DNA from: a virus
Reading direction: 5' to 3' (one strand)
Length of the DNA: 64,000 bases
Virus record (IMG/VR): IMGVR_UViG_3300047089_000152
Coordinates: 1-64,000 of that record
Each line of letters starts with the position of its first letter. The first letter of the stretch is position 1. Both the position numbers and the translations under genes were made by a program. Below are positions 1-62,817 of this stretch, one piece after another. A model generated the notes under the pieces. That model was given only the letters and a program-made list of their open reading frames with translations. It had not been told where the DNA came from and ran no database searches.

Positions 1-110
1 GGTGTGGGTGGGTGGGTGGTGACGTGGGTAGGTGGGTGATGTGTGAGTGGGTGTGTGAGGTGAGTGGGTGTAGTGGGTAGGGTGGGCATGGAGTGTGGGG
101 TGGTGTAACG
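1..110 (+). repeat. G/T-rich low-complexity tract of GGGT/GTGG/GTGAG units at the window start
   Basis: Almost C-free run of ggtg/gggt units over the first ~110 nt; non-coding. Confidence 0.8.
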
Positions 111-6413: not shown

Positions 6414-6705
6414 CCTCCGGTACAACGCCGAGGTTGAACGTACAGGTGAGGACCCTTCCACGCAGAACTACATCACGTACTCGGCGGCAGCGACGCTGCT
6501 CCGGTCCCTGCGTGAAGGTGACGCCGCCGTCTTCAACGCCGTCGCCGGGCCGGGCGCGGACGAGATCTGATGCCAAGGTTCGTGGTCCTGGATTGTGAGA
6601 CAGGGCATCGCAGGGCGTGTCATTCTCGCCCGTGGCGGATCTGGAGCATCACGTATTGCGTATGTGACTGCCACGCGTGGTGGTCACGGAAAAGGAGAAG
6701 GAAAC

Positions 6706-30643: not shown

Positions 30644-31774
30644 GTGACCCCCAACCCCCCCGAAGAGACCGCTGTCGCGCGCCGCGACCCCCAGCTTGAC
30701 CTGTCCGAGGTCGCGTTGGACGGGCCGCTGAAAAACATGGCGCAGGCGTGGGCCATCGCGAAAGTCCTCGCGCAGTCCTCCATGGTCCCCCACGCGCTCC
30801 GCGGTTCCCCGCAGAACTGCCTCGTCACGATGATGCTCGGGCAGGAACTGGACCTGACCTGGACCCAGGCCACCCGGGGTATCTACGTGCTGCCCAACGG
30901 CACCCCCGGGCTGCGCGGCCAGCTTCTCCTCGCCCTGATCCGCAAGGCCGGGCACCGGTACACCTTCGAGCGTACCGACGACTCGTGTACCTGCACGATC
31001 AGCCGCAAGGACGAGGATTTCAAGATCCCCCACGTGGGGTCGTTCACCCTGGACGACGCGCTGCTCGCCGGGCTGGTCTCCAAGAAAGACGGGAAGCTGT
31101 TCGCCCGGTCTTCCAGCGGGAACCCGCTGCCGTGGGAGCAGTACCGCCGTGACATGCTTCAGTGGCGGGCCGTCGCCCGCGCCGCTGGTATCGGCGCACC
31201 CGAGGTTATCTACGGGTTCGACATCGCCGGTATCGGTGACAACGCTGAAGGTCCCGCAGCTCCTGGCCCGGTTCCGTCACAGCCCTCGGCACCGGGCCAG
31301 GTTTACACCGCCGAGGTCGTCACCCCCGAACAGGACGCCCGGCAGAAGCTGGCCGAGCTGAACGCTGAGATGGCCGCGGGCACAGCCCAGACGCACGACG
31401 ACCCTGCTTTTCAGGGCGAGCATGGAGTTTCTGGCCAGGCAGATCAGGCTGATACTGCTCCTGCCGGGACGCTGAATTTCCAGCCCGCCGCACCGCCCGG
31501 ATACGACGACCTGGACCAGCTTTTGAAGCGGTCCGGGTTCCACGGTGACGCGCAAGACGACCTGGTGTCGGCGCTGGTCCACCGGAAAGTCAACGGCCTG
31601 ACCGACCTGTCCAAAGCTGAGGTGCTGATCACCCACGACGTGGTCACCAAGGCCATCCGTGGTGCTTCTACCACCGGGGCGAGGCGGGCAGCGCTGAACC
31701 AGGTAGCCTCAGCGGAACGCGACGCGATGGAATCCGCCACGGCCGAAGCTGACGAATGGACGGCGACGGAATGA
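30644..31774 (+). CDS. RecT-like ssDNA-annealing protein
   Basis: VPHALRGSPQNC...GQELDL...IYVL.NGTPG...PWEQYRRDMLQWRA. Confidence 0.75.
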   Translation: MTPNPPEETAVARRDPQLDLSEVALDGPLKNMAQAWAIAKVLAQSSMVPHALRGSPQNCLVTMMLGQELDLTWTQATRGIYVLPNGTPGLRGQLLLALIRKAGHRYTFERTDDSCTCTISRKDEDFKIPHVGSFTLDDALLAGLVSKKDGKLFARSSSGNPLPWEQYRRDMLQWRAVARAAGIGAPEVIYGFDIAGIGDNAEGPAAPGPVPSQPSAPGQVYTAEVVTPEQDARQKLAELNAEMAAGTAQTHDDPAFQGEHGVSGQADQADTAPAGTLNFQPAAPPGYDDLDQLLKRSGFHGDAQDDLVSALVHRKVNGLTDLSKAEVLITHDVVTKAIRGASTTGARRAALNQVASAERDAMESATAEADEWTATE

Positions 31775-32364
31775 GAGAAAGCCTGGTCATGGGGACACCG
31801 GTCAGGTTGTGCTGCTCCCGGCAGCACTGGGGTCCCGTCTGCCCGGACGGCAGGGTGATGTGCTGCGTCTGCTACGGCAGGTACGAACCTGACGAGCTGC
31901 ACGTCGACGGGACCGGTACGACGTGGGACATGTGCGCGAACTGCGGGAAGGACGTGGCCGGGTGATCTGTAAACCCTGCCGGAACCTGGACCACGACGGG
32001 TGCCCGGAGGTAGCCCGGCAGGCTGACCCGGACCTGCGTCCCATCGACAAGATCGCTGGTGCCGCGTGTTACTGCGCGCACCAGCCCGGTTCGTGCCTGC
32101 GCCCGGACCGGCAGGCAGACCCGAGGAGGGGAGCGTAGATGGCTAGGAAAATATGCCCGTACAAGTGGCCCAGCGCCGACGGGAAGCACACGCATTCCTG
32201 CAAGTACCTAGAAGGTCACAAGCACGGGCATGAGTGCCTGTGCGGGGCGCTGCCCCGGTGATGGCCACTAAGGATAAATGCTGCCGTGGATGGTACCGGT
32301 GCACGTGCGTCAAGACGTGTACCTGCCGGTGCGGGGCGTGCAGATGCTCCACGCGGAGACGCCG

Positions 32365-33396
32365 GTGAATATCCCCTCGACCGCCGAACTTCTACTCCGC
32401 GCCGACTGGGCGCGTCCCCGGTCTCGGCAGACAGCGCTGGGCATGTCCGACCTCGGTGGGTGTCGTCGCCGTGCCGGATATCAGCTGGCCGGTTACCAGC
32501 CGGAGAAACCAAGCGGATCAATTCAAGCTGTCATTGGCACGGCAGTGCATGATGCCGTGGATGCCGCGCTGAAAAAGATGCGCGAAGACGGGATCATTCC
32601 CGCCGACTCGGTCATCAACGAGGCCGTCTCGTTTGGTGGCGTCGTAGGGCACCCGGACCTTTATGTGGACGGGGTACTCAGGGATGTTAAAACTCTCGGG
32701 TATGGGGCGCAGCTGGCGAACGCGAAGCTGTACGGTCCGAAGCGGCAGCATCTGTGGCAAGTCATGACGTACGCCGCAGCCTGTATCCTCGCGGACCGGC
32801 CGGTGCGCACTGTCCAGATTGATTACCTTGTCAGGGATTCCGGTGAAAGCTGGATATGGGAAGGGCCGTTCGATTTCGGGCAGGTCCGCGAGGCGATGCA
32901 GTGGCTGGAATCGGTGCGGGAAACGCCGCTGGAATTCCTCGCCAGGGATTACGCTCCAGATTCGGCGACATGCAAAGGCTGCCCGTTCTTCAACGCCTGC
33001 TGGGACGGCCACGTGGTCGACCGTGACGAACGATCCGTCCTGCTAGTCACCGATGACGACGCGGTGCAGTGGGCGCTGCGACTGGAAGTAGCCCGGGAAC
33101 GGATCAAGACGGCGAAAGAAGAAGAAGCCCTGTCGAAAGGCGCGCTCGACGGGCTACGCCCTAACGACAAGGGAAAGGCGGAAATAAAATTGACTGGCTA
33201 CCCGAAGACTCTGCGCTGGACAGTCACTACGCGGAAGAATCTGGACACCGAAGTAATAAAGCAAGATTATGCGAGGGGCGGCATTATGCCGCCCCTCGCA
33301 TCGAGCGAAAGCGTCCGGTTGGAGTTGCTCGCGCCGCGGGATGAGGATTTATCCTGCCTATCCAATCCCGGCCGCTCCATGCCAAGCCATGCCTAG
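32365..33396 (+). CDS. Cas4-like / PD-(D/E)XK exonuclease
   Basis: SDLGGC, GTAVH, GHPD...DVKT, QVMTYA, CKGCPFFNAC (1+3 Cys). Confidence 0.85.
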   Translation: MNIPSTAELLLRADWARPRSRQTALGMSDLGGCRRRAGYQLAGYQPEKPSGSIQAVIGTAVHDAVDAALKKMREDGIIPADSVINEAVSFGGVVGHPDLYVDGVLRDVKTLGYGAQLANAKLYGPKRQHLWQVMTYAAACILADRPVRTVQIDYLVRDSGESWIWEGPFDFGQVREAMQWLESVRETPLEFLARDYAPDSATCKGCPFFNACWDGHVVDRDERSVLLVTDDDAVQWALRLEVARERIKTAKEEEALSKGALDGLRPNDKGKAEIKLTGYPKTLRWTVTTRKNLDTEVIKQDYARGGIMPPLASSESVRLELLAPRDEDLSCLSNPGRSMPSHA

Positions 33397-33413
33397 CCGC
33401 GCCTATCCCTTGC
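33350..33413 (-). ncRNA. Solo pentamer-code unit (putative guide RNA): 11 pentamers + GGCA + GGATA
   Basis: Minus strand gcaag ggata ggcgc ggcta ggcat ggctt ggcat ggagc ggccg ggatt ggata ggca ggata. Confidence 0.7.
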
Positions 33414-33420
33414 TACGTTC

Positions 33421-33450
33421 ATGGTATCATATAGGACGGGGAACGCACAA
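33421..33450 (-). promoter_or_regulatory. Putative promoter for the solo unit (TTGTGC-N18-TACCAT, extended TGn)
   Basis: -10 ends 7 nt before the first pentamer. Confidence 0.6.
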
Positions 33451-33462
33451 AAGGAGGTCGCT

Positions 33463-33690
33463 GTGGACGAGAGGGATGACTGGCTGGACCTGCCGCTGTC
33501 GGCTGAAGCGAAGCGGTTCATCGAGGCCACCCGGCAGGCCAGCATGACAGAACGCGAAACGATGATGGAATTCGCGGCCATCCTGTGCCGCTGCACTCCG
33601 TGGTATGACTACAGGAATCCGCGGGCTCCGCAAGAATCTTGCGTCGTGCATACAACAGTCATGTTTGACATGAAAGGCGGCTGGACGTGA
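33463..33690 (+). CDS. Hypothetical protein
   Basis: AAGGAGG RBS. Confidence 0.6.
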   Translation: MDERDDWLDLPLSAEAKRFIEATRQASMTERETMMEFAAILCRCTPWYDYRNPRAPQESCVVHTTVMFDMKGGWT

Positions 33691-36363: not shown

Positions 36364-36684
36364 CTACTCCGTCACCACGATCTGAATACCCGCACACTCG
36401 TCAGTCAACAGGACTGGCCCGGCAGGCCACAAGGTGTGCGCTACGGGTATCTCGGCTGGGTCCTGGTAGCGGCCGGTCAGCCACCCTTGCTCCAGCGCCT
36501 CGGCGGGATGACCATGAACCCACCTGTGACACGCCGCGCACAACGTGACACGGTTGCAGGCGCGTTCGTCGCTGCCCGCCGACCTGAGCATTCTGTGGTG
36601 CACGTGCAGGTCGCGTGTGCTCCCGTCACGTGCGCACCGGTTCCCGTCGCGTTGGCGAATCTCCGCGTCGGGCACGTTCACCAC
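36364..36684 (-). CDS. HNH endonuclease
   Basis: RDGNRC...HVHHR..RS.G...N.VTLCAACH. Confidence 0.8.
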   Translation of the reverse strand: MVNVPDAEIRQRDGNRCARDGSTRDLHVHHRMLRSAGSDERACNRVTLCAACHRWVHGHPAEALEQGWLTGRYQDPAEIPVAHTLWPAGPVLLTDECAGIQIVVTE

Positions 36685-37136
36685 AGCGTAACCACCCCGT
36701 CGCAGGTTATCTGTATAATGGTATGTATGAGTACCAAAGAAATCTGTGTGCGGAAGGCACGCTATTCTTCCGTGCTCAGCTGCAAGCACTACGTTCTAGT
36801 CGGCCAGCCTATCTTCCGTGTCGAGGGACGGTGGATCTGCAAGGAATGCTTCTGGGTGTAACCGGCCCACAGCCCGGTGCCGGGCGTCATCTGACGCCCG
36901 GTCAACGATGACCGCCAGCTGGTCTACGACTTTTTGCTGCGCGATCCTGGCCCGTTTGGCTTTACGCCGCTTACCGATCTCCACCCACCGTTCCCGTTCC
37001 TGTTCACGTGACCTGTCCATCGAAAGGGTCGACCGGCACTGCCCGGTGTGACCGGCGGGCCGCCCGCACGCGGGCGGGTCCAGGAGTGCACCCCAGATTT
37101 TTTCGTAACGGATCATTTCCCGGCCGCACCGTGGTG

Positions 37137-41795: not shown

Positions 41796-41817
41796 GGTGC
41801 CAATAGTATTTGCTTTG

Positions 41818-41865
41818 CTTGTGCGAAGCAATTAACCGACCTGGGACGCTAAGCGTACACCTGTG
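41818..41865 (+). repeat. 48-bp direct repeat, copy 2
   Basis: Matches 40683-40730 except within the 6-nt segment. Confidence 0.85.
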
Positions 41866-41878
41866 GTACAATAGACCT

Positions 41879-42706
41879 ATGGCCACCTACAAGACGCTGC
41901 GCAGTGACGACCCGAAAGTCCAGCAAGCCCGGCAACGCGCCGGGAAAATCGTCGGGGCGATGAACGACCTCGCCGCCCTCGTCCAACAGTCGTGGGACGC
42001 GAAAGACTGGCGCGTCCTCGGCTATGACTCCTGGCAGAGTTACACGGTCGGGGAGTTCGGCCACGGCGACACCGCCATCAAAGCCCGGCAGGTCATCGTG
42101 TCCATGCTCCGAGGAACCGGACTGTCCCAACGCGCCATCGCCGCGGAGACCGGCGCGTCCGTCGCGACCGTCAACAACGACATTGCCGACCTGTCAACCG
42201 CACCCCCGGAGGGTGACCCTACGACGATCGACCGGCGACCCCGGCCGACTGTTCAGGAACCTGAACAGTCACTCAGAGTAACCGGGCTGGACGGTAGGAC
42301 ACAACCCGCCAGCAGAGGAGGCATGACAGGAGACCAGCGCAGAGAACGGGACCGGCTACTGCGGGCGCAAAGACGGCAAAGAGAAGCGGCCCTCCGCGAA
42401 ACCCACGCCGCCGACGCCGCCCGGCCGGTACCTGACATGATCCACGGTCACCCCGTGACCGTCACCTGCCCGATGTGCGTAGAACTGGCACGCCCAGCCC
42501 GCGAAGCACCCGTTGAACCACTAGCTGGACATTCCGTCGAAACCCGGCTTCGGCTGCTGTTCGCCGGGTTCCTCGACGGTCTCACCCCCGACCAGCTCAC
42601 CGCCCTGCACGACCACTGGGACGAGATCATGAACGAAACCGTCACAGACCGGATCACTAGCTGGGCCGCCGTCGGCCGTACCGTCGCGCAGGAAAGGGCA
42701 AGCTGA
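41879..42706 (+). CDS. HTH DNA-binding protein
   Basis: WRVLGYDSWQSY..GEF; GLSQRAIAAETGASVATVNND. Confidence 0.75.
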   Translation: MATYKTLRSDDPKVQQARQRAGKIVGAMNDLAALVQQSWDAKDWRVLGYDSWQSYTVGEFGHGDTAIKARQVIVSMLRGTGLSQRAIAAETGASVATVNNDIADLSTAPPEGDPTTIDRRPRPTVQEPEQSLRVTGLDGRTQPASRGGMTGDQRRERDRLLRAQRRQREAALRETHAADAARPVPDMIHGHPVTVTCPMCVELARPAREAPVEPLAGHSVETRLRLLFAGFLDGLTPDQLTALHDHWDEIMNETVTDRITSWAAVGRTVAQERAS

Positions 42707-43125
42707 TGAACGGTCAGACTGTCCCCCGGCCCCGGCCGTGCGCGTCGTGTCCGTACCGTAGAGACGTGCCGTCCGGTGTGTGGGCCGCGGAAGAATATGA
42801 CAAGCTACCCCGCTACGACGGGGACACGGGTGAGCAGGCGATGGCCGGGGCGTTCGGCGTGTTCATGTGTCACCAGGCTGACGGGCACCTGTGTTCAGGT
42901 TGGGTAGCCGCCCACGACATGCAGCACAACCTGGCGATACGCATGGCCCGCGACGTGGACATGCCAGCGGTCCTGTCGTACACCACGGACGTGTCGGTGT
43001 TTGGTTCCGGTGCGGAAGCCGCGGCGCACGGCAAGGCCGACATCGAGACCCCGGGGCCGGAAGCTATGCGGACCGTGGAGAAGATCACCGTGGTACGCGG
43101 TAGGCGCGGGAAAGGGAAAGGATGA
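42706..43125 (+). CDS. DUF6283-like Cys-rich protein
   Basis: PCASCPYRRDVPSGVWAAEEYDKLPRYDG...FMCHQ...CSGW. Confidence 0.7.
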   Translation: MNGQTVPRPRPCASCPYRRDVPSGVWAAEEYDKLPRYDGDTGEQAMAGAFGVFMCHQADGHLCSGWVAAHDMQHNLAIRMARDVDMPAVLSYTTDVSVFGSGAEAAAHGKADIETPGPEAMRTVEKITVVRGRRGKGKG

Positions 43126-43319
43126 GGCGGCCTAGGACGGAGCTGGAAGCGTACCGGTGTCCTGATTGCGGGTACACGGCGTTGATACAGCGGCTGGCTA
43201 GCCGGAGGAAGCTGACGGGGCATTTGAAGTGGTTGTGGTGTGTGCGGTGTGAGGTGCCCACGAATCATGTACTGGTCCCCTAGCCTGGACGGTTGTGGTA
43301 CGCTGTGGGTACAGCAAAC

Positions 43320-43453
43320 GGACCGGAAGGGAAAGGCTGGGCGCGGCAGGCATCGCAGCGGCCGGGATAGCAGCGGATCGGAGCGGCAGGACAGGATTGG
43401 CAGGGCACGGCTGGGCTAGGTGTGGCTGGGCTGGGAACGGAATGGATTGGACA
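43320..43453 (+). ncRNA. Upstream pentamer-code mini-array (13 pentamers + GGCA + 13 pentamers), putative guide RNA
   Basis: ggacc ggaag ggaaa ggctg...ggagc GGCA ggaca...ggatt ggaca; extended -10 TGG-TACGCT at 43296-43304. Confidence 0.75.
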
Positions 43454-43483
43454 CTAGCCGCACCGCATGCTACAGTAGAGGTA
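43448..43483 (+). promoter_or_regulatory. Promoter for the RAMP-like gene (TGGACA-N17-TACAGT-AGAGGTA)
   Basis: -35 overlaps the last pentamer of the mini-array. Confidence 0.6.
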
Positions 43484-43520
43484 TAGTCAACGGACGAGGG
43501 CATGAAAGGAACAACGCACC

Positions 43521-44186
43521 ATGCCACCACGCAAGACCACCACAGGCGGACCAGTCCAGCTCACCAGGCTGGCAGAAGAAGTCGCCCAAATCCACATCGC
43601 CGGGGCTACGCCACTTATTATTCATAAATGGTCGGAAAAGGCGCTCAACCAGATGCGGATCGCCCAGTCCGGGGCAATTAAGCCGCCCCGCGAACCCAAG
43701 AACGCCGAAGAAAACGCCCACGCGGCAACATACTGGGTCGACGTCGCCGAGACGATCCCCGGCATCCCCAGCGTCTCATTCAAGGCCGCCATGGTCGGAG
43801 CCTGCCGGTTCTTCGACGGCCTCCCCATGACGACAGCAAAATTGCTGTTCTTCGTCGACGGGGTCGTCAGCGAAGCCAAGGGCGACGCGCCAGCACGCGA
43901 CCTGCTCGTCCCGATTATCTCCGGCCCTGGGGAAATGCGGGAAGACACCCCGCGCAACGACAACGGAAACCCGGACCTCCGGTACAGGAATCAGTTCTTC
44001 CCGTGGAAAGCCGTACTCAACGTGCGGTTCATGCCCGCGAAGATCGCCCCCGAATCCGTCATCGCGCTAGCTGACGCCGCCGGTCGTGGCGGTGTCGGAG
44101 AATGGCGTCCATCCGCACCGAAAAGCGCGACTGGCACATACGGCCAGTTTCGTGTCATCACCCGGAAGGAATGGGAGTCGGCCTAA
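43521..44186 (+). CDS. Stand-alone RAMP/Cas7-like RNA-binding protein (Vipr-like effector)
   Basis: IHIAGATPLIIH (first RRM strand), PGIPSVSFKAAM (cf. Cas7/Csm3 PxIPGSSLKG), C-terminal G-loop GVGEWRP...GTYGQFRV; flanked by pentamer arrays. Confidence 0.75.
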   Translation: MPPRKTTTGGPVQLTRLAEEVAQIHIAGATPLIIHKWSEKALNQMRIAQSGAIKPPREPKNAEENAHAATYWVDVAETIPGIPSVSFKAAMVGACRFFDGLPMTTAKLLFFVDGVVSEAKGDAPARDLLVPIISGPGEMREDTPRNDNGNPDLRYRNQFFPWKAVLNVRFMPAKIAPESVIALADAAGRGGVGEWRPSAPKSATGTYGQFRVITRKEWESA

Positions 44187-44187
44187 A

Positions 44188-44745
44188 ATGGCGACCATCA
44201 CCGTCGAACAGCAGTGGGCGTTCAAATCGGGTGCGCGTGTCCCGGGTGGCGTCCACGCCGAGGATGTGGTGCGTGAGAAGGAACAGATGGAAGACCACCT
44301 GGGCCGCCTCGCCACCACGGAGGAAGCCGCGGAAATGGTCCTCCGCTGGCCTACCAAGTACAAGGCGCACCGGGCGTTCGCACCGGCAACCGAGAAAGAA
44401 GCACTCCACGAAGCAGTGGTACGCGGTGTTCGGAGCGCCTGGAGTTCCGTGATTCAGGTCGACGTCGAAATCACCGAGGTCACCAACCGGATTTCCGGTG
44501 ATATCGAGATCGCAACCAGGCGTGTCGACGCACCCGAAGTGAGATGGTTTCACGCCGTGCCAGCACGCGTCGGCGACACGCAACGAGTTTATGACTCGTT
44601 GCCGAATATCGCAGCCGATGCTGACAAGGAAGCGGCGCTGTCCGAAGATCTCGCCACGCAAGCACGCAACTTCTCCGCAAAAGTAGCCAGCGTCACTGGC
44701 GAGCTGGCGCGGTTGCACAAGTTGCGCAGCACCGCCGGAAATTAG
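44188..44745 (+). CDS. Accessory protein coupled to the RAMP-like gene
   Basis: Starts 1 nt after the RAMP stop; helical; directly precedes the array. Confidence 0.7.
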   Translation: MATITVEQQWAFKSGARVPGGVHAEDVVREKEQMEDHLGRLATTEEAAEMVLRWPTKYKAHRAFAPATEKEALHEAVVRGVRSAWSSVIQVDVEITEVTNRISGDIEIATRRVDAPEVRWFHAVPARVGDTQRVYDSLPNIAADADKEAALSEDLATQARNFSAKVASVTGELARLHKLRSTAGN

Positions 44746-44748
44746 ACC

Positions 44749-44786
44749 ACCAGGTTCCGGCCGGGGAAACTCGGCCGGAACCTGGT
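44749..44786 (+). other. Leader hairpin (16-bp stem, GAAA loop) immediately 5' of the main array
   Basis: accaggttccggccgg-ggaaac-tcggccggaacctggt. Confidence 0.8.
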
Positions 44787-44794
44787 CGGTAAGG

Positions 44795-46073
44795 GGAGTG
44801 GAGGGGCAGGGACTGTCGTGGCAAGGAACGGCAGGGCACGGAGTGGATTGGCAGGATAGGCTCGGCGCGGCCAGGCGGGGAGCGTTTCGGAGTGGCATGG
44901 ATTGGCTGGGACTGGCAGTATCGGATCGCAGTGGTCAGGGTAGGCAAGGCCCGGCCAGGCGGGGCTCGGTATGGCCTGCACTGGCGGGGAACGCAATGGA
45001 GTGGCAGGACCGGTGTGGAATGGCTGGGACGGGAACGGCGCGGTAGGGAATGGAGTGGCAGGAACGGTGGGGCCGGGCGCGGCGCGGCTAGGCTCGGCGC
45101 GGACGGGCATGGATTGGCTGGGCAGGACAGGATCGGAGAGCAGGGGGCTGGCGCGGCATGGCACGGAGAGGCAGGAGAGGAACGGTCGGGACAGGAGCGG
45201 CAAGGAGCGCACCGGCAGGCAGCGGCAGGGAATGGCATGGAACGGACTGGATTGGCAGGACAGGACCGGCATGGCCAGGAGGGGCATGTCCTGGAATGGA
45301 ATGGCAGGAATGGCTGGGTACGGCGGGGCCGGGCGAGCATTGGACAGGACCGGCAGTCGCGGAAGGGCTCGGCAGGGACCGGATTGCAGCGGCGAGGATG
45401 GGCTAGGCAGGAGCGGAACGGCAGGGCATGGCCTGGATCGGAGCGGCTGGGCAGGATAGGCATGGATCGGCCTGGGTAGGCAAGGAGGGGCTGGGACGGG
45501 ACCGGATTGGCAGGGCAGCAGTGGAGAGGCAAGCCGTGCAATGGCGGGGCGGGGCGTGGCATGGACTGGACCGGCAGGACTGGACTGGACTGGATTGGAG
45601 AGCAGGGCAGTGGCAGGGATCGTAGGGGTTCGGACGGGCAGGTTAGGCTTGGACGGGCTAGGCGTGGCATGGGCCGGCAAGGAACGGCTCGGAGCGGCAG
45701 GGATTGGCACGGCTCGGAGTGGCAGGACCGGACGGGTACGACGTGGCGTGGCTGGCATTGGCAAGGACTGGCAGGAGTGGATTGGCAGGGCCGGGCTTGG
45801 CATGGCGTGGCTGGGAATGGCGTGGCAGGACAGGTGGGGCTTGGCGGGCCGGGGATCGGCACGGATGGGCATGGCATGGCCCGGTAGGGCATGGCAGCAT
45901 TGGACTGGACCGGACCGGCAAGGCTTGGCTTGGCTGGGATCGGATGGGAACGGCAGGAGCGGAGCGGACTGTCGTGGCATGGCATGGCCTGGCGTGGCGC
46001 GGATCGGACGGGCAGGATAGGTCGGGCGTGGAATGGAACGGACGGGCTGGGCATGGAACGGCAGGATAGGAGT
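44795..46073 (+). ncRNA. Main pentamer-code array: 21 units of 8-17 G(G)N-NN pentamers, each closed by GGCA (putative multi-guide RNA precursor)
   Basis: 44795-46063 is exactly 237x5 + 21x4 nt; GGCA marks at 44850, 44914, 45003, 45057, 45121, 45170, 45254, 45303, 45352, 45406, 45450, 45514, 45573, 45637, 45721, 45770, 45824, 45893, 45952, 46011, 46060. Confidence 0.85.
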
Positions 46074-46130
46074 GACCCGCAGGGCTACTGTCGGGGTGGG
46101 CCGCGTGCCCCGGCAGAAGTTCGGCGGTGG

Positions 46131-46283: not shown

Positions 46284-47149
46284 ACGAGACCATAGAACGA
46301 GAAGACCGCAGGGCCGTCACCGCGCTCACCTCCGGGGAAAACGCCACGAAGGTCACCGTCAAAACAAGCGACGGCAACTACGAAGAACGACAGCTAACCG
46401 TCCACGGGCTCGCACGGCTGATTCCCGTGATCGCACTGGGCGACATGGACCGGCTGATAGACGACGTGCGCGAACACGGCGTCCTCGAACCCCTGATCAT
46501 GTTCCAGGGACAAGTCCTTGACGGACGCAACCGGCTCGCCGTAGCTTCGGTCGTCGGCGTACCCGTGCAGCTCACCGAATTCGACGGAGACGAAGCCGCA
46601 GCCAGAAACTTCGTCTGGTCCGCGAACGCTGCGAGGCGGCACCTGTCCGTCCCCCAGATCGCGCTGGCCGCTGAACGGTTCGGTTTCGTCGACGCCGCCA
46701 AAGCCGAAGCAGGCCCCGACGACCCCAACCTGGATATCCGCTCGACGGTCGCACCATGGGCGCGAATCGCCGCGCGAAAGGTCGGTGCGATCACCCCGGC
46801 TACACTGGAACGGTTCCAGCAAGCCAGGATCCCCGAGGCACCCGACACGATGCGCCGGGTCGATTCCGGTGAGATCCGCCGGGTCGACGTCGCGGTCAAG
46901 GAAGCGGTCGCGGAGCGGACCGTGCTCACCGGCCGTCTCATCCAGGTTCCACCCCCGGTTGCGCGTACCGCGTGGGACCGGCTGGGCTGCGCGCGGGGTG
47001 ACGTTCTCGCCGCGGAACGCGCCATCCTGGCAGGGGACTGGGGTGGGATGGAAAGGGACCAGTTCGCTGTCCGCGCCCGTGAAATCCAGGGAGCCCTGAT
47101 CAGGATTCAGAATTTGTATCGTTATGGATCGGGCGGCAGGACCGGTTAG
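46280..47149 (+). CDS. ParB-like N-terminal domain protein
   Basis: DVREHGVLEPL...LDGRNRL...FVWSANAARRHLS. Confidence 0.8.
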   Translation: MNETIEREDRRAVTALTSGENATKVTVKTSDGNYEERQLTVHGLARLIPVIALGDMDRLIDDVREHGVLEPLIMFQGQVLDGRNRLAVASVVGVPVQLTEFDGDEAAARNFVWSANAARRHLSVPQIALAAERFGFVDAAKAEAGPDDPNLDIRSTVAPWARIAARKVGAITPATLERFQQARIPEAPDTMRRVDSGEIRRVDVAVKEAVAERTVLTGRLIQVPPPVARTAWDRLGCARGDVLAAERAILAGDWGGMERDQFAVRAREIQGALIRIQNLYRYGSGGRTG

Positions 47150-47207
47150 GACGGGCTAGGAATGGCTGGGCTGGGCATGGACTGGAATGGCAGGAATGGA
47201 ATGGCTA
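47135..47207 (+). ncRNA. Pentamer-code unit (GGCA + 10 pentamers + GGCA + 3) between the ParB-like gene and the next gene
   Basis: ggca ggacc ggtta ggacg ggcta ggaat ggctg ggctg ggcat ggact ggaat ggca ggaat ggaat ggcta. Confidence 0.7.
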
Positions 47208-47473
47208 AGCCGGATTTCGCCCACGGCGTGCAAGGCTACAACTGGCACAAGTGCCGGTGCGAACAGTGCCGGGCGGCTAACTCCGCCCGGTCCCGTACCT
47301 CCCGCGCTGCCCGCAAAGCACGCACCGCGGCGGGTGACCCCGCCGTCCCGCACGGGACCAGGGGCGGGTACACCAACTGGGCGTGCCGGTGCCTGCCATG
47401 CTCCCAGGCCAACAGCGAGGCGTGCCTGGAATACCGGAACGCCCACAGTAACCGTCAGGACATCGTGACCTGA
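47201..47473 (+). CDS. Small protein with two HG..gY...CRC..C repeats
   Basis: HGVQGYNWHKCRCEQC; HGTRGGYTNWACRCLPC. Confidence 0.7.
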   Translation: MAKPDFAHGVQGYNWHKCRCEQCRAANSARSRTSRAARKARTAAGDPAVPHGTRGGYTNWACRCLPCSQANSEACLEYRNAHSNRQDIVT

Positions 47474-62748: not shown

Positions 62749-62817
62749 GCATTGGAGGGGCATGGCATGGCACGGCCCGGAGTGCTGGGGTGGGGAACGG
62801 AATGGATGGGCAGGATA
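62749..62817 (+). ncRNA. Solo pentamer-code unit (12 pentamers + GGCA + GGATA), antisense within the tail operon
   Basis: gcatt ggagg ggcat ggcat ggcac ggccc ggagt gctgg ggtgg ggaac ggaat ggatg ggca ggata; TGG-TAGGAT -10 at 62733-62741. Confidence 0.75.

What the first reader, a model, noticed from the sequence alone, without database searches (positions are those of the whole stretch)
43320..46116. Phage-encoded non-CRISPR RNA-guided system candidate: RAMP/Cas7-like protein, partner gene and punctuated pentamer-code array
Seen in sequence: the order is mini-array (43320-43453), promoter, 221-aa gene, coupled 185-aa gene, GAAA-loop hairpin, 1.27-kb G(G)N-NN pentamer array, then a 3' hairpin (46088-46116). 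The 221-aa protein has RAMP-type motifs (IxGxTPL, PGIPSVSFKAAM, terminal G-loop GVGEWRP...GTYGQF). No cas1/2/3/5/6/8 and no repeat-spacer CRISPR is visible. Established knowledge: Cas7-family RAMPs polymerise along guide RNA with a fixed nucleotide period. From memory (not checked here), phage VIPR loci pair a RAMP-like protein with GGY/NN repeat RNAs whose NN dinucleotides specify a gapped DNA target. Inference: each protomer binds the constant triplet and displays the variable NN, so each GGCA-delimited unit is one guide, probably against competing phages or host promoters, and probably acting by binding rather than cutting.
Basis: partly seen in the sequence, partly recalled or inferred. 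Interest (0 to 1): 0.97.

Follow-up and report, generated by a model that had tools for sequence, protein, structure and literature searches.

The report
Actinophage VIPR guide-RNA silencing system
This uncultured 104-kb high-GC phage carries a VIPR system, the CRISPR-related RNA-guided DNA silencer first described in 2026 preprints, so the finding is real and was read correctly, but it is a new example of a known kind with a few unusual details.

Summary

**What is there**
- 43521-44183 encodes a Cas7-like RAMP. A family profile hits the solved SUSP1 Vipr protein (E 2.9e-6). The model matches Csm3/Cas7 with Z 10.4.
- A conserved partner gene starts 1 nt after its stop.
- After a strong hairpin comes a 1.27-kb array of about 22 units of GG-N-NN pentamers. 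Each unit ends in GGCAG and overlaps the next by one G. This is the published "staggered" vrRNA array.
- 34 of 41 viral loci with a homologue have such arrays beside the gene, including those matching Mycobacterium phages.
- Cas1, Cas2 and CRISPR repeats are absent.

**Function**
- The published 1-nt-skip rule holds for two stand-alone guides. One matches a radical-SAM gene of a related VIPR-less phage at 22/24.
- Targets of the 22 array guides were not found.

**Unusual details**
- Pentamer position 3 is A or C, not pyrimidine, and A is concentrated at unit ends.
- At least seven promoter-guide cassettes lie outside the main array, and most have a downstream hairpin.
- Two of them sit next to near-matching genes of their own genome.

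**Verdict**
New member of a known kind. This scan had already found VIPR systems in at least nine other genomes.

The parts
43320..43453 (+). Upstream mini-array: three pentamer units. M1 43320-43349 and M2 43360-43389 end in GGCAG. M3 43389-43453 ends in GGACA at the -35 of the vipr promoter.
   Evidence: An extended -10-like TGTGGTACGCT lies about 15 nt upstream.
43448..43476 (+). Promoter-like site of the vipr-vap operon (TGGACA-17-TACAGT, TG-extended)
   Evidence: a consensus match only
43521..44186 (+). vipr: 221-aa Cas7-like RAMP (Vipr family)
   Evidence: phrog_4652 5.7e-23. Profile hit to PDB 36pp_D SUSP1 Vipr at 2.9e-6. AF2 pLDDT 86.6. Csm3/Cas7 matches. 607 homologues.
44188..44745 (+). 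vap-like partner gene: 185 aa, translationally coupled, fold unknown, long C-terminal helix
   Evidence: Homologues. The profile finds ORFs close downstream of vipr in about 14 related loci. AF2 pLDDT 94. No fold match.
44746..44790 (+). Strong hairpin between vap and the array
   Evidence: dG -41.5, z -8.1. The stem is kept in L044 with 2 compensatory pairs.
44795..46064 (+). Main staggered vrRNA array: about 22 units of 5-17 pentamers (median about 11). Each unit ends in GGCAG, whose last G is the first G of the next unit.
46064..46116 (+). Array tail (GGATAGG...) and weak 3' hairpin 46088-46116
   Evidence: z -0.8. The same GGCAG-GATA ending is seen at stand-alone cassettes.
47139..47193 (+). 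Stand-alone guide cassette S47k between the ParB-like gene and the next gene
   Evidence: It has a 20/22 near-match at 47096-47127 on the minus strand.
62754..62813 (+). Stand-alone guide cassette S62k with a -10 box and a strong terminator hairpin
   Evidence: (dG -42.2, z -8.3)
33354..33408 (-). Stand-alone guide cassette S33k on the opposite strand

Best explanation
This is a phage-encoded VIPR system with a staggered vrRNA array.

Proposed mechanism:
1. The vipr-vap operon is transcribed from the promoter at about 43448-43476.
2. Transcription reads through the hairpin into the 1.27-kb array.
3. The long transcript yields about 22 guide RNAs of 5-17 pentamers.
4. One Vipr protomer binds each pentamer. 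It buries the two G's and base 3 and displays the last two bases.
5. The filament reads double-stranded DNA as NN-x-NN-x, with one base skipped that usually falls on the codon wobble position.
6. It blocks transcription of genes of competing phages or other mobile elements.
7. The 4-nt step at each GGCAG|G junction breaks the 5-nt register. This probably ends one filament and marks the processing site.
8. Further single guides elsewhere in the genome, each with its own promoter-like box, load onto the same protein.

Shown here: the fold and family of the protein, the conserved gene-array linkage, the array grammar, and the 1-nt-skip matches of two stand-alone guides.

Inferred from the SUSP1 and P. 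fulva work: RNA loading, filament formation, silencing rather than cutting, and processing at the junctions.
For: - Family: profile of 38 homologues against the solved SUSP1 Vipr, E 2.9e-6 over thumb and G-loop.
- The residues that bind the two G's in SUSP1 (H17, R138, D177, W178, R179; paper .720927) align to H35, R156, E194, W195, R196.
- Fold: all top Foldseek hits are Cas7-family RAMPs. VIA Z is 10.4 over 153 residues, and Z 9.3 to 6ifn_E, the chain the discoverers used as their query with cut-off Z 6.
- Linkage: 34 of 41 IMG/VR loci with a homologue carry same-strand GGNNN arrays next to it. So do Mycobacterium phage Saal and Gordonia phage UmaThurman and the 93%-identical relative L044.
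- Architecture: GGCAG ends with a 1-nt overlap match the published 'staggered vrRNA arrays'.
- Code: among skips 0-3, only skip 1 gives outliers.
  - Guide S47k scores 20/22 (z 8.3) against its own genome.
  - Guide S79k scores 20/26 against its own genome.
  - S79k scores 22/24 (z 7-11) on the homologous radical-SAM gene of the related VIPR-less phage G001, with skipped bases at wobble positions.
- Array guides have no match in the phage's own genome, as expected for weapons aimed elsewhere.
- No Cas1, Cas2 or CRISPR array.
Against: - No RNA data: transcription, processing sites and protein loading are untested.
- No target was found for any of the 22 array guides or 3 mini-array guides in the phage's own genome, in five related phage genomes (503 kb), in about 50 Vipr loci, or with two exact 9-dinucleotide seeds in IMG/VR.
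- Base 3 is a purine (A) in 38% of pentamers, although the SUSP1 pocket is reported to exclude purines.
- Two stand-alone guides match their own genome at 83-91%, above the 80% threshold that the published work uses to call a target.
- The partner protein has no recognisable DNA-binding or nuclease fold, so 'silencing not cutting' rests on absence of evidence.
Confidence: 0.88

Rival explanations
1. The same VIPR machinery is real, but in this phage it serves at least partly for self-regulation. Stand-alone guides would bind near-matching sites in the phage's own genes, for example to shut off the ParB-like gene and a radical-SAM gene at a set time, rather than to attack competitors.
For: - S47k matches its own genome at 20/22, at 47096-47127. 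That site covers the 3' end of the ParB-like gene and the cassette's own -10 box.
- S79k matches its own radical-SAM gene at 20/24, 0.65 kb away.
- Both are p<0.002 against 500 guide shuffles in a 3-kb local search.
Against: - S79k fits the allele of the VIPR-less relative better than its own (22/24 against 20/24).
- Four other stand-alone guides and all array guides have no significant self match.
- The published systems avoid self matches.
Confidence: 0.12
2. The pentamer region is protein-coding or plain low-complexity DNA. The long ORFs across it (453 and 475 aa on the minus strand, several of 80-195 aa on the plus strand) would then be real genes, and the link to the RAMP gene would be fortuitous.
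For: Open reading frames of up to 475 aa span the array. GenBank annotators called such an ORF in Gordonia phage UmaThurman (gp40).
Against: - Period-5 power is 3.8 against period-3 power 0.56, the opposite of the neighbouring genes.
- GG is invariant at pentamer positions 1-2, while positions 4-5 use 15-16 dinucleotides.
- The same arrays recur beside vipr in 34 of 41 loci, with different content each time.
- In-phase runs exceed shuffles by about 45-fold.
Confidence: 0.01
3. It is a decayed or inactive VIPR remnant. The purine at base 3 and the degenerate pentamers would reflect erosion of an array that no longer loads onto the protein.
For: - 38% A at base 3.
- About 10% of pentamers lack GG.
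- No targets found.
Against: - Both genes are intact, and the G-binding residues are kept.
- The A's are not random: they sit in the first two pentamers and the last two before GGCAG (27/30, 18/30, 22/30, 23/30, against about 35% inside). The same grammar holds in the 93%-identical relative, whose guides are otherwise almost all different. That indicates selection and turnover.
- Published vrRNAs also show internal degeneracy.
Confidence: 0.04

Closest known systems
VIPR systems with staggered vrRNA arrays (bioRxiv 10.64898/2026.04.26.720920, main text and Fig. S18 legend)
   Same: - Lone Vipr RAMP plus one accessory gene on a phage, with no cas genes.
- Arrays of GG-led pentamers with hypervariable last two bases.
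- Adjacent guides overlap by 1 nt, so the end of one marks the start of the next.
- Guides of about 9-16 repeats.
- The 1-nt-skip match falls on codon wobble positions.
   Different: - Base 3 is A or C (53% C, 38% A) instead of pyrimidine, and A is concentrated at both ends of each unit.
- I could not see the paper's figures or its type table, so I cannot say which of the seven types this is, or whether its 'NNNGG' class already covers this consensus.
Type II VIPR of Escherichia phage SUSP1 and the Pseudomonas fulva prophage (same preprint; structures in 10.64898/2026.04.26.720927; PDB 36pp)
   Same: - Protein family, with E 2.9e-6 by profile.
- G-loop GVG(D/E)WRP, thumb arginine and beta-sheet histidine are conserved.
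- vipr-vap operon with one small array upstream and the main array downstream.
- 1-nt-skip rule.
   Different: - No conserved 3' tail or pseudoknot after each guide; units abut directly.
- About 22 guides in one 1.27-kb array, against 3 downstream guides in SUSP1.
- The partner protein is unrelated in sequence to anything solved.
- The host is probably an actinobacterium.
Solo (orphan) vrRNAs of satellites and VIPR-less phages (bioRxiv 10.64898/2026.10.15.759431)
   Same: - Single guides away from the vipr locus.
- Self-match scores are lower than the match to a competitor's allele (S79k: 20/24 self, 22/24 relative).
   Different: - Here the solos sit in a phage that has its own Vipr.
- There are at least six, spread over 60 kb on both strands.
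- Two lie within 0.7 kb of the near-matching gene in their own genome.
Cas7 backbone subunits of class 1 CRISPR effectors (Csm3, Cmr4, type VII Cas7)
   Same: RRM core, thumb hairpin and glycine-rich loop (Z about 10). One protomer binds each fixed RNA period.
   Different: - 5-nt rather than 6-nt period.
- No repeat-spacer array, no Cas1/Cas2, no large or small subunit.
- Sequence identity is only 9-13%.

Membership tests
VIPR system | Vipr protein: a minimal RAMP with RRM core, thumb and glycine-rich loop, related to known Vipr proteins | tested here: met
   Profile against PDB 36pp_D SUSP1 Vipr, E 2.9e-6. Foldseek top hits are all Cas7-family. VIA Z 10.4, rmsd 3.8, 153 aligned residues. The model shows a beta hairpin at 154-170 and a loop at 188-197.
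VIPR system | Residues that hold the two guanines (SUSP1 H17, R138, D177, W178, R179) | tested here: met
   They align to H35, R156, E194 (conservative; D in most relatives), W195 and R196.
VIPR system | Tandem GGY-NN (or related) pentamer repeats, at least 4 units, next to vipr | tested here: met
   About 250 pentamers downstream and 25 upstream. The consensus is GG-(C/A)-NN rather than GGY-NN. The preprint allows related consensi such as NNNGG.
VIPR system | Minimal locus: vipr plus one accessory gene, no cas genes, no CRISPR array | tested here: met
   Two coupled genes. Cas1 and Cas2 profiles are silent on the whole contig, with working controls. No repeat-spacer repeats. Other cas families were not searched one by one.
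VIPR system | Noncontiguous target code with one skipped base per dinucleotide | tested here: met
   Met for two stand-alone guides. Only skip 1 gives outliers, with 22/24 on a relative's gene. Untested for the array guides, because no target was found.
VIPR system | Guide RNAs are expressed, processed and co-purify with Vipr; the complex represses transcription | not testable with these tools
   Needs sRNA-seq, pull-down and reporter assays.
VIPR staggered-array subtype | Neighbouring guides overlap by 1 nt; no spacer, tail or ribozyme between them | tested here: met
   There are 16 GGCAGGA junctions plus GGCAG+4-nt junctions. No Rfam hammerhead or other family. The same junction is seen in Saal, UmaThurman and the IMG/VR loci.
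Type II VIPR (SUSP1 clade) | Invariable structured 3' tail (pseudoknot) after each repeat tract | tested here: not met
   Units abut with no tail. Only the last unit and the stand-alone cassettes are followed by hairpins, and these differ from one another.
CRISPR-Cas (class 1) | Repeat-spacer array plus adaptation genes cas1/cas2 and multi-subunit effector | tested here: not met
   Only one RAMP gene is present.

The most novel reading that the evidence does not exclude
In this sub-lineage the constant part of the VIPR code has changed, and the guides are organised as linked 'weapon plus immune allele' cassettes.

- An A at base 3 would act as punctuation: it caps the first two and last two pentamers of every guide and so sets filament ends or processing.
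- Stand-alone guides would be kept next to a gene of their own genome that carries one to four escape mismatches, while the perfect or better-matching allele sits in co-infecting VIPR-less relatives.
- Recombination would then transfer guide and resistant allele together, as an RNA-guided form of allele exclusion.
Probability: 0.15. Interest if true: 0.75.

Novelty: new member of a known kind. Interest (0 to 1): 0.42.

Why it matters
- It extends VIPR, so far studied experimentally in E. coli and Pseudomonas phages, to a large clade of high-GC actinophages.
- That clade includes culturable Mycobacterium smegmatis and Gordonia phages, where the arrays are currently unannotated or mis-called as genes. 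This gives an easy experimental entry point.
- The A/C alternation at base 3 is a natural test of how strict the 'pyrimidine pocket' is.
- The near-self matches of stand-alone guides bear on how VIPR-bearing phages avoid silencing themselves.
- None of this changes the picture of what VIPR is.

Tried and rejected
**Target searches that found nothing**
- All 31 guides against the phage's own 104-kb genome under skips 0-3.
- The same guides against about 50 Vipr loci and five related phage genomes. Nothing for array guides.
- Exact IMG/VR scans:
  - S47k and S79k: 0 hits each.
  - Array unit A12: 0 hits.
  - Array unit A4: one hit in a low-GC contig, which does not extend (18/20) and is within chance expectation.
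- The ParB-like allele of relative G001 is not matched by S47k.

**Base 3**
- Base 3 as a read position is rejected. It agrees with the skipped base at only 2-6 of 10-12 positions at the three known sites (hand count).
- The G-loop D-to-E change as the cause of A usage is rejected. Many GGC/GGT-only loci also have E.

**Partner protein and other checks**
- No Pfam, PHROG, NCBIfam or PDB sequence match.
- Foldseek best E 0.57. VIA best Z 4.9, on the terminal helix only.
- Close phage relatives: blastn found none in INPHARED.
- Tandem Repeats Finder sees only fragments, because the NN bases vary.
Full report
**1. The observation**

The mini-array at 43320-43453 and the main array at 44795-46064 share a strict 5-nt rhythm.
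- GG recurs at lag 5 at 2.8 times expectation and almost never at lags 2-3.
- 179 of 254 pentamers lie in in-phase GGNNN runs of five or more, against a mean of 3.9 in dinucleotide shuffles.
- Period-5 power is 3.8 against period-3 power 0.56, the reverse of the flanking genes. The 453- and 475-aa ORFs across the array are therefore artefacts.
- Positions 1-2 of the pentamers are G. Position 3 is C 53% and A 38%. Positions 4-5 use nearly all dinucleotides.
- In-phase runs end in GGCAG and the next run starts one base early. This gives 16 GGCAGGA junctions plus a few GGCAG+4-nt ones, and about 22 units of 5-17 pentamers.
- The hairpin at 44746-44790 is strong (dG -41.5, z -8.1). The 3' hairpin at 46088-46116 is not distinguishable from shuffles.
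- A promoter-like site lies at 43448-43476.

**2. The protein**

The 221-aa product has no Pfam or NCBIfam match and hits only PHROG 4652, of unknown function. It has 607 homologues in the large protein collection.
- A profile of 38 of these homologues hits one solved chain only: the SUSP1 Vipr protein (PDB 36pp), E 2.9e-6, over the thumb and the G-loop.
- The AlphaFold model has pLDDT 86.6.
  - Foldseek matches Csm3, Cmr4 and type VII Cas7 at E about 1e-5.
  - VIA-align gives Z 10.4 for the same families.
  - VIA-align gives Z 9.3 to 6ifn_E, the query chain of the VIPR discovery pipeline, whose cut-off was Z 6.
- The SUSP1 residues that hold the two guanines align to H35, R156, E194, W195 and R196.

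**3. What is known**

VIPR was described in three 2026 preprints.
- It consists of a lone ancestral RAMP (Vipr), an accessory gene (vap) and vrRNAs of GGY-NN pentamers.
- The NN bases read double-stranded DNA with one base skipped per dinucleotide.
- It acts in phage-phage and phage-satellite conflict by transcriptional silencing.
- Seven types are defined. Array forms include 'staggered arrays' in which neighbouring vrRNAs overlap by 1 nt.

The junctions seen here are exactly that form.

**4. Relatives**

tblastn finds the protein in 27 Mycobacterium phage and 5 Gordonia phage records.
- In Saal, a GGCNN array with GGCAG|G junctions lies just upstream of gp51.
- In UmaThurman, the array lies just downstream of gp39 and is annotated as the CDS gp40.
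- Of 41 IMG/VR loci with a homologue, 34 carry same-strand arrays next to it.
- The closest relative (L044, 93% identity, soil metagenome) has a 1.1-kb upstream and a 0.7-kb downstream array. Only one of its guides is recognisably shared with this phage, so guide content turns over quickly.

**5. The partner gene**

The 185-aa gene starts 1 nt after the vipr stop. It evolves fast: three close homologues and distant ones down to E 8e-13. Even so, a profile of them finds ORFs close downstream of vipr in about 14 related loci, including UmaThurman gp41. The model is confident (pLDDT 94): a helical N-terminal part, a four-stranded sheet and a 40-residue terminal helix. It has no fold match. I cannot say which published vap family it belongs to.

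**6. The code and the targets**

The contig is a 104,150-bp virus record of 63.6% GC. It carries RecT, an exonuclease and tail genes distantly like those of Streptomyces phages.

Besides the main locus it has single-unit guides at:
- 33354-33408 (minus strand), 47139-47193 and 62754-62813 in the window;
- 79506-79570, 86576-86645 and 90454-90508 beyond the window.

Each has a -10-like box upstream, in most an extended TGn-TAnnnT box, and most have a downstream hairpin.

I scanned all guides against the phage's own genome with 0-3 skipped bases. Only skip 1 gave outliers:
- S47k scores 20/22 at 47096-47127, in the 3' end of the ParB-like gene and over its own -10 box.
- S79k scores 20/26 at 80226-80263, in a radical-SAM gene.
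- Both are p<0.002 in a local test, S62k is marginal (p 0.018), and the rest are not significant.
- Skipped bases fall on wobble positions.

Related phages were found through the ParB-like and tail proteins.
- The six checked (G001-G006) all lack Vipr.
- In G001, S79k matches the homologous radical-SAM site at 22/24 (z 7-11). This is better than its own allele and again appears only at skip 1.

This is direct support that the published rule applies to this system, and that at least one guide is aimed at a relative. No target was found for the array guides.

**7. What is unusual**

- Base 3 is A in 38% of pentamers here and 30% in L044, but at most about 10-15% in nearly all other loci of the clade.
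- The A's are positional, and L044 shows the same pattern in weaker form:
  - first pentamer 27/30;
  - second pentamer 18/30;
  - the two pentamers before the terminal GGCAG 22/30 and 23/30;
  - interior about 35%.
- The SUSP1 pocket for base 3 is reported to exclude purines.
- This Vipr and its close relative differ from otherwise conserved residues at seven positions. The G-loop D-to-E change is not the cause, because it is common in GGC-only loci.
- Base 3 does not track the skipped target base at the three known sites.
- The near-self matches of two solos exceed the 80% threshold that the preprints use to call targets.

**8. Verdict**

The system is a member of the published VIPR kind, staggered-array form, and not of the SUSP1 type II, because it has no 3' tail. 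The scan's own records show VIPR loci already followed up in at least nine other genomes with the same verdict. The A/C grammar and the gene-linked solos are worth a note. They do not make this a new kind, and I could not see the preprint's supplementary figures to exclude that its 'NNNGG' class already covers the consensus.

Noticed in passing
window 47096-47193: Stand-alone guide S47k (47139-47193) matches 20 of 22 informative bases at 47096-47127 on the opposite strand, 11 nt upstream of itself. That site is the 3' end of the ParB-like gene and includes the cassette's own -10 box. The two mismatches are both first codon positions.
   Followed up: partly
genome 79506-79570 and 80226-80263 (beyond the window); relative G001 44706-44743: Stand-alone guide S79k matches a radical-SAM gene of its own genome at 20/24. 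It matches the homologous gene of a related 119-kb phage without Vipr (IMGVR_UViG_3300036771_000024) at 22/24, and only under the 1-nt-skip rule.
   Followed up: yes
window 33354-33408 (-), 62754-62813 (+); genome 86576-86645, 90454-90508: Four more single-guide cassettes, each with its own -10-like box (an extended one in three) and a downstream hairpin in three of the four. None has a significant target in the phage's own genome or in five related phages.
   Followed up: partly
L002 (Gordonia phage UmaThurman, record 33362-33685) and L001 (Mycobacterium phage Saal, record about 36588-36834): Published phage records annotate pentamer arrays as protein. UmaThurman gp40 lies wholly inside an array, and the annotated start of Saal gp51 reaches back into one.
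   Followed up: partly
window 47162-47473: The first 13 or so codons of this ORF are the S47k guide. The homologue in relative G001 aligns only from residue 16, so the true start is probably further downstream.
   Followed up: partly
window 41810-44745 compared with G001: The HTH gene, the DUF6283 gene, the zinc-ribbon gene, vipr and vap have no counterpart in the related phage G001, while the ParB-like gene and its downstream neighbour are syntenic. The VIPR cassette therefore sits in a variable region, and all six relatives checked lack it.
   Followed up: partly
window 1-106: The contig starts with a G/T-rich tract (GGTGTGGGTGGG...), of unknown meaning. It could be a genome end or an assembly edge.
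   Followed up: no
window 30644-33393: A RecT-like annealing protein is followed, about 0.5 kb downstream, by a Cas4-like PD-(D/E)xK exonuclease (PHROG 1706/1674). This is an ordinary phage recombination module, not part of a CRISPR system.
   Followed up: no
window 44746-44790 compared with L044 about 6545-6590: The hairpin between vap and the array is kept in the 93%-identical relative, with two compensatory base pairs. The GAAA loop is not kept, and the relative has a U-tract after the stem where this phage has none.
   Followed up: partly
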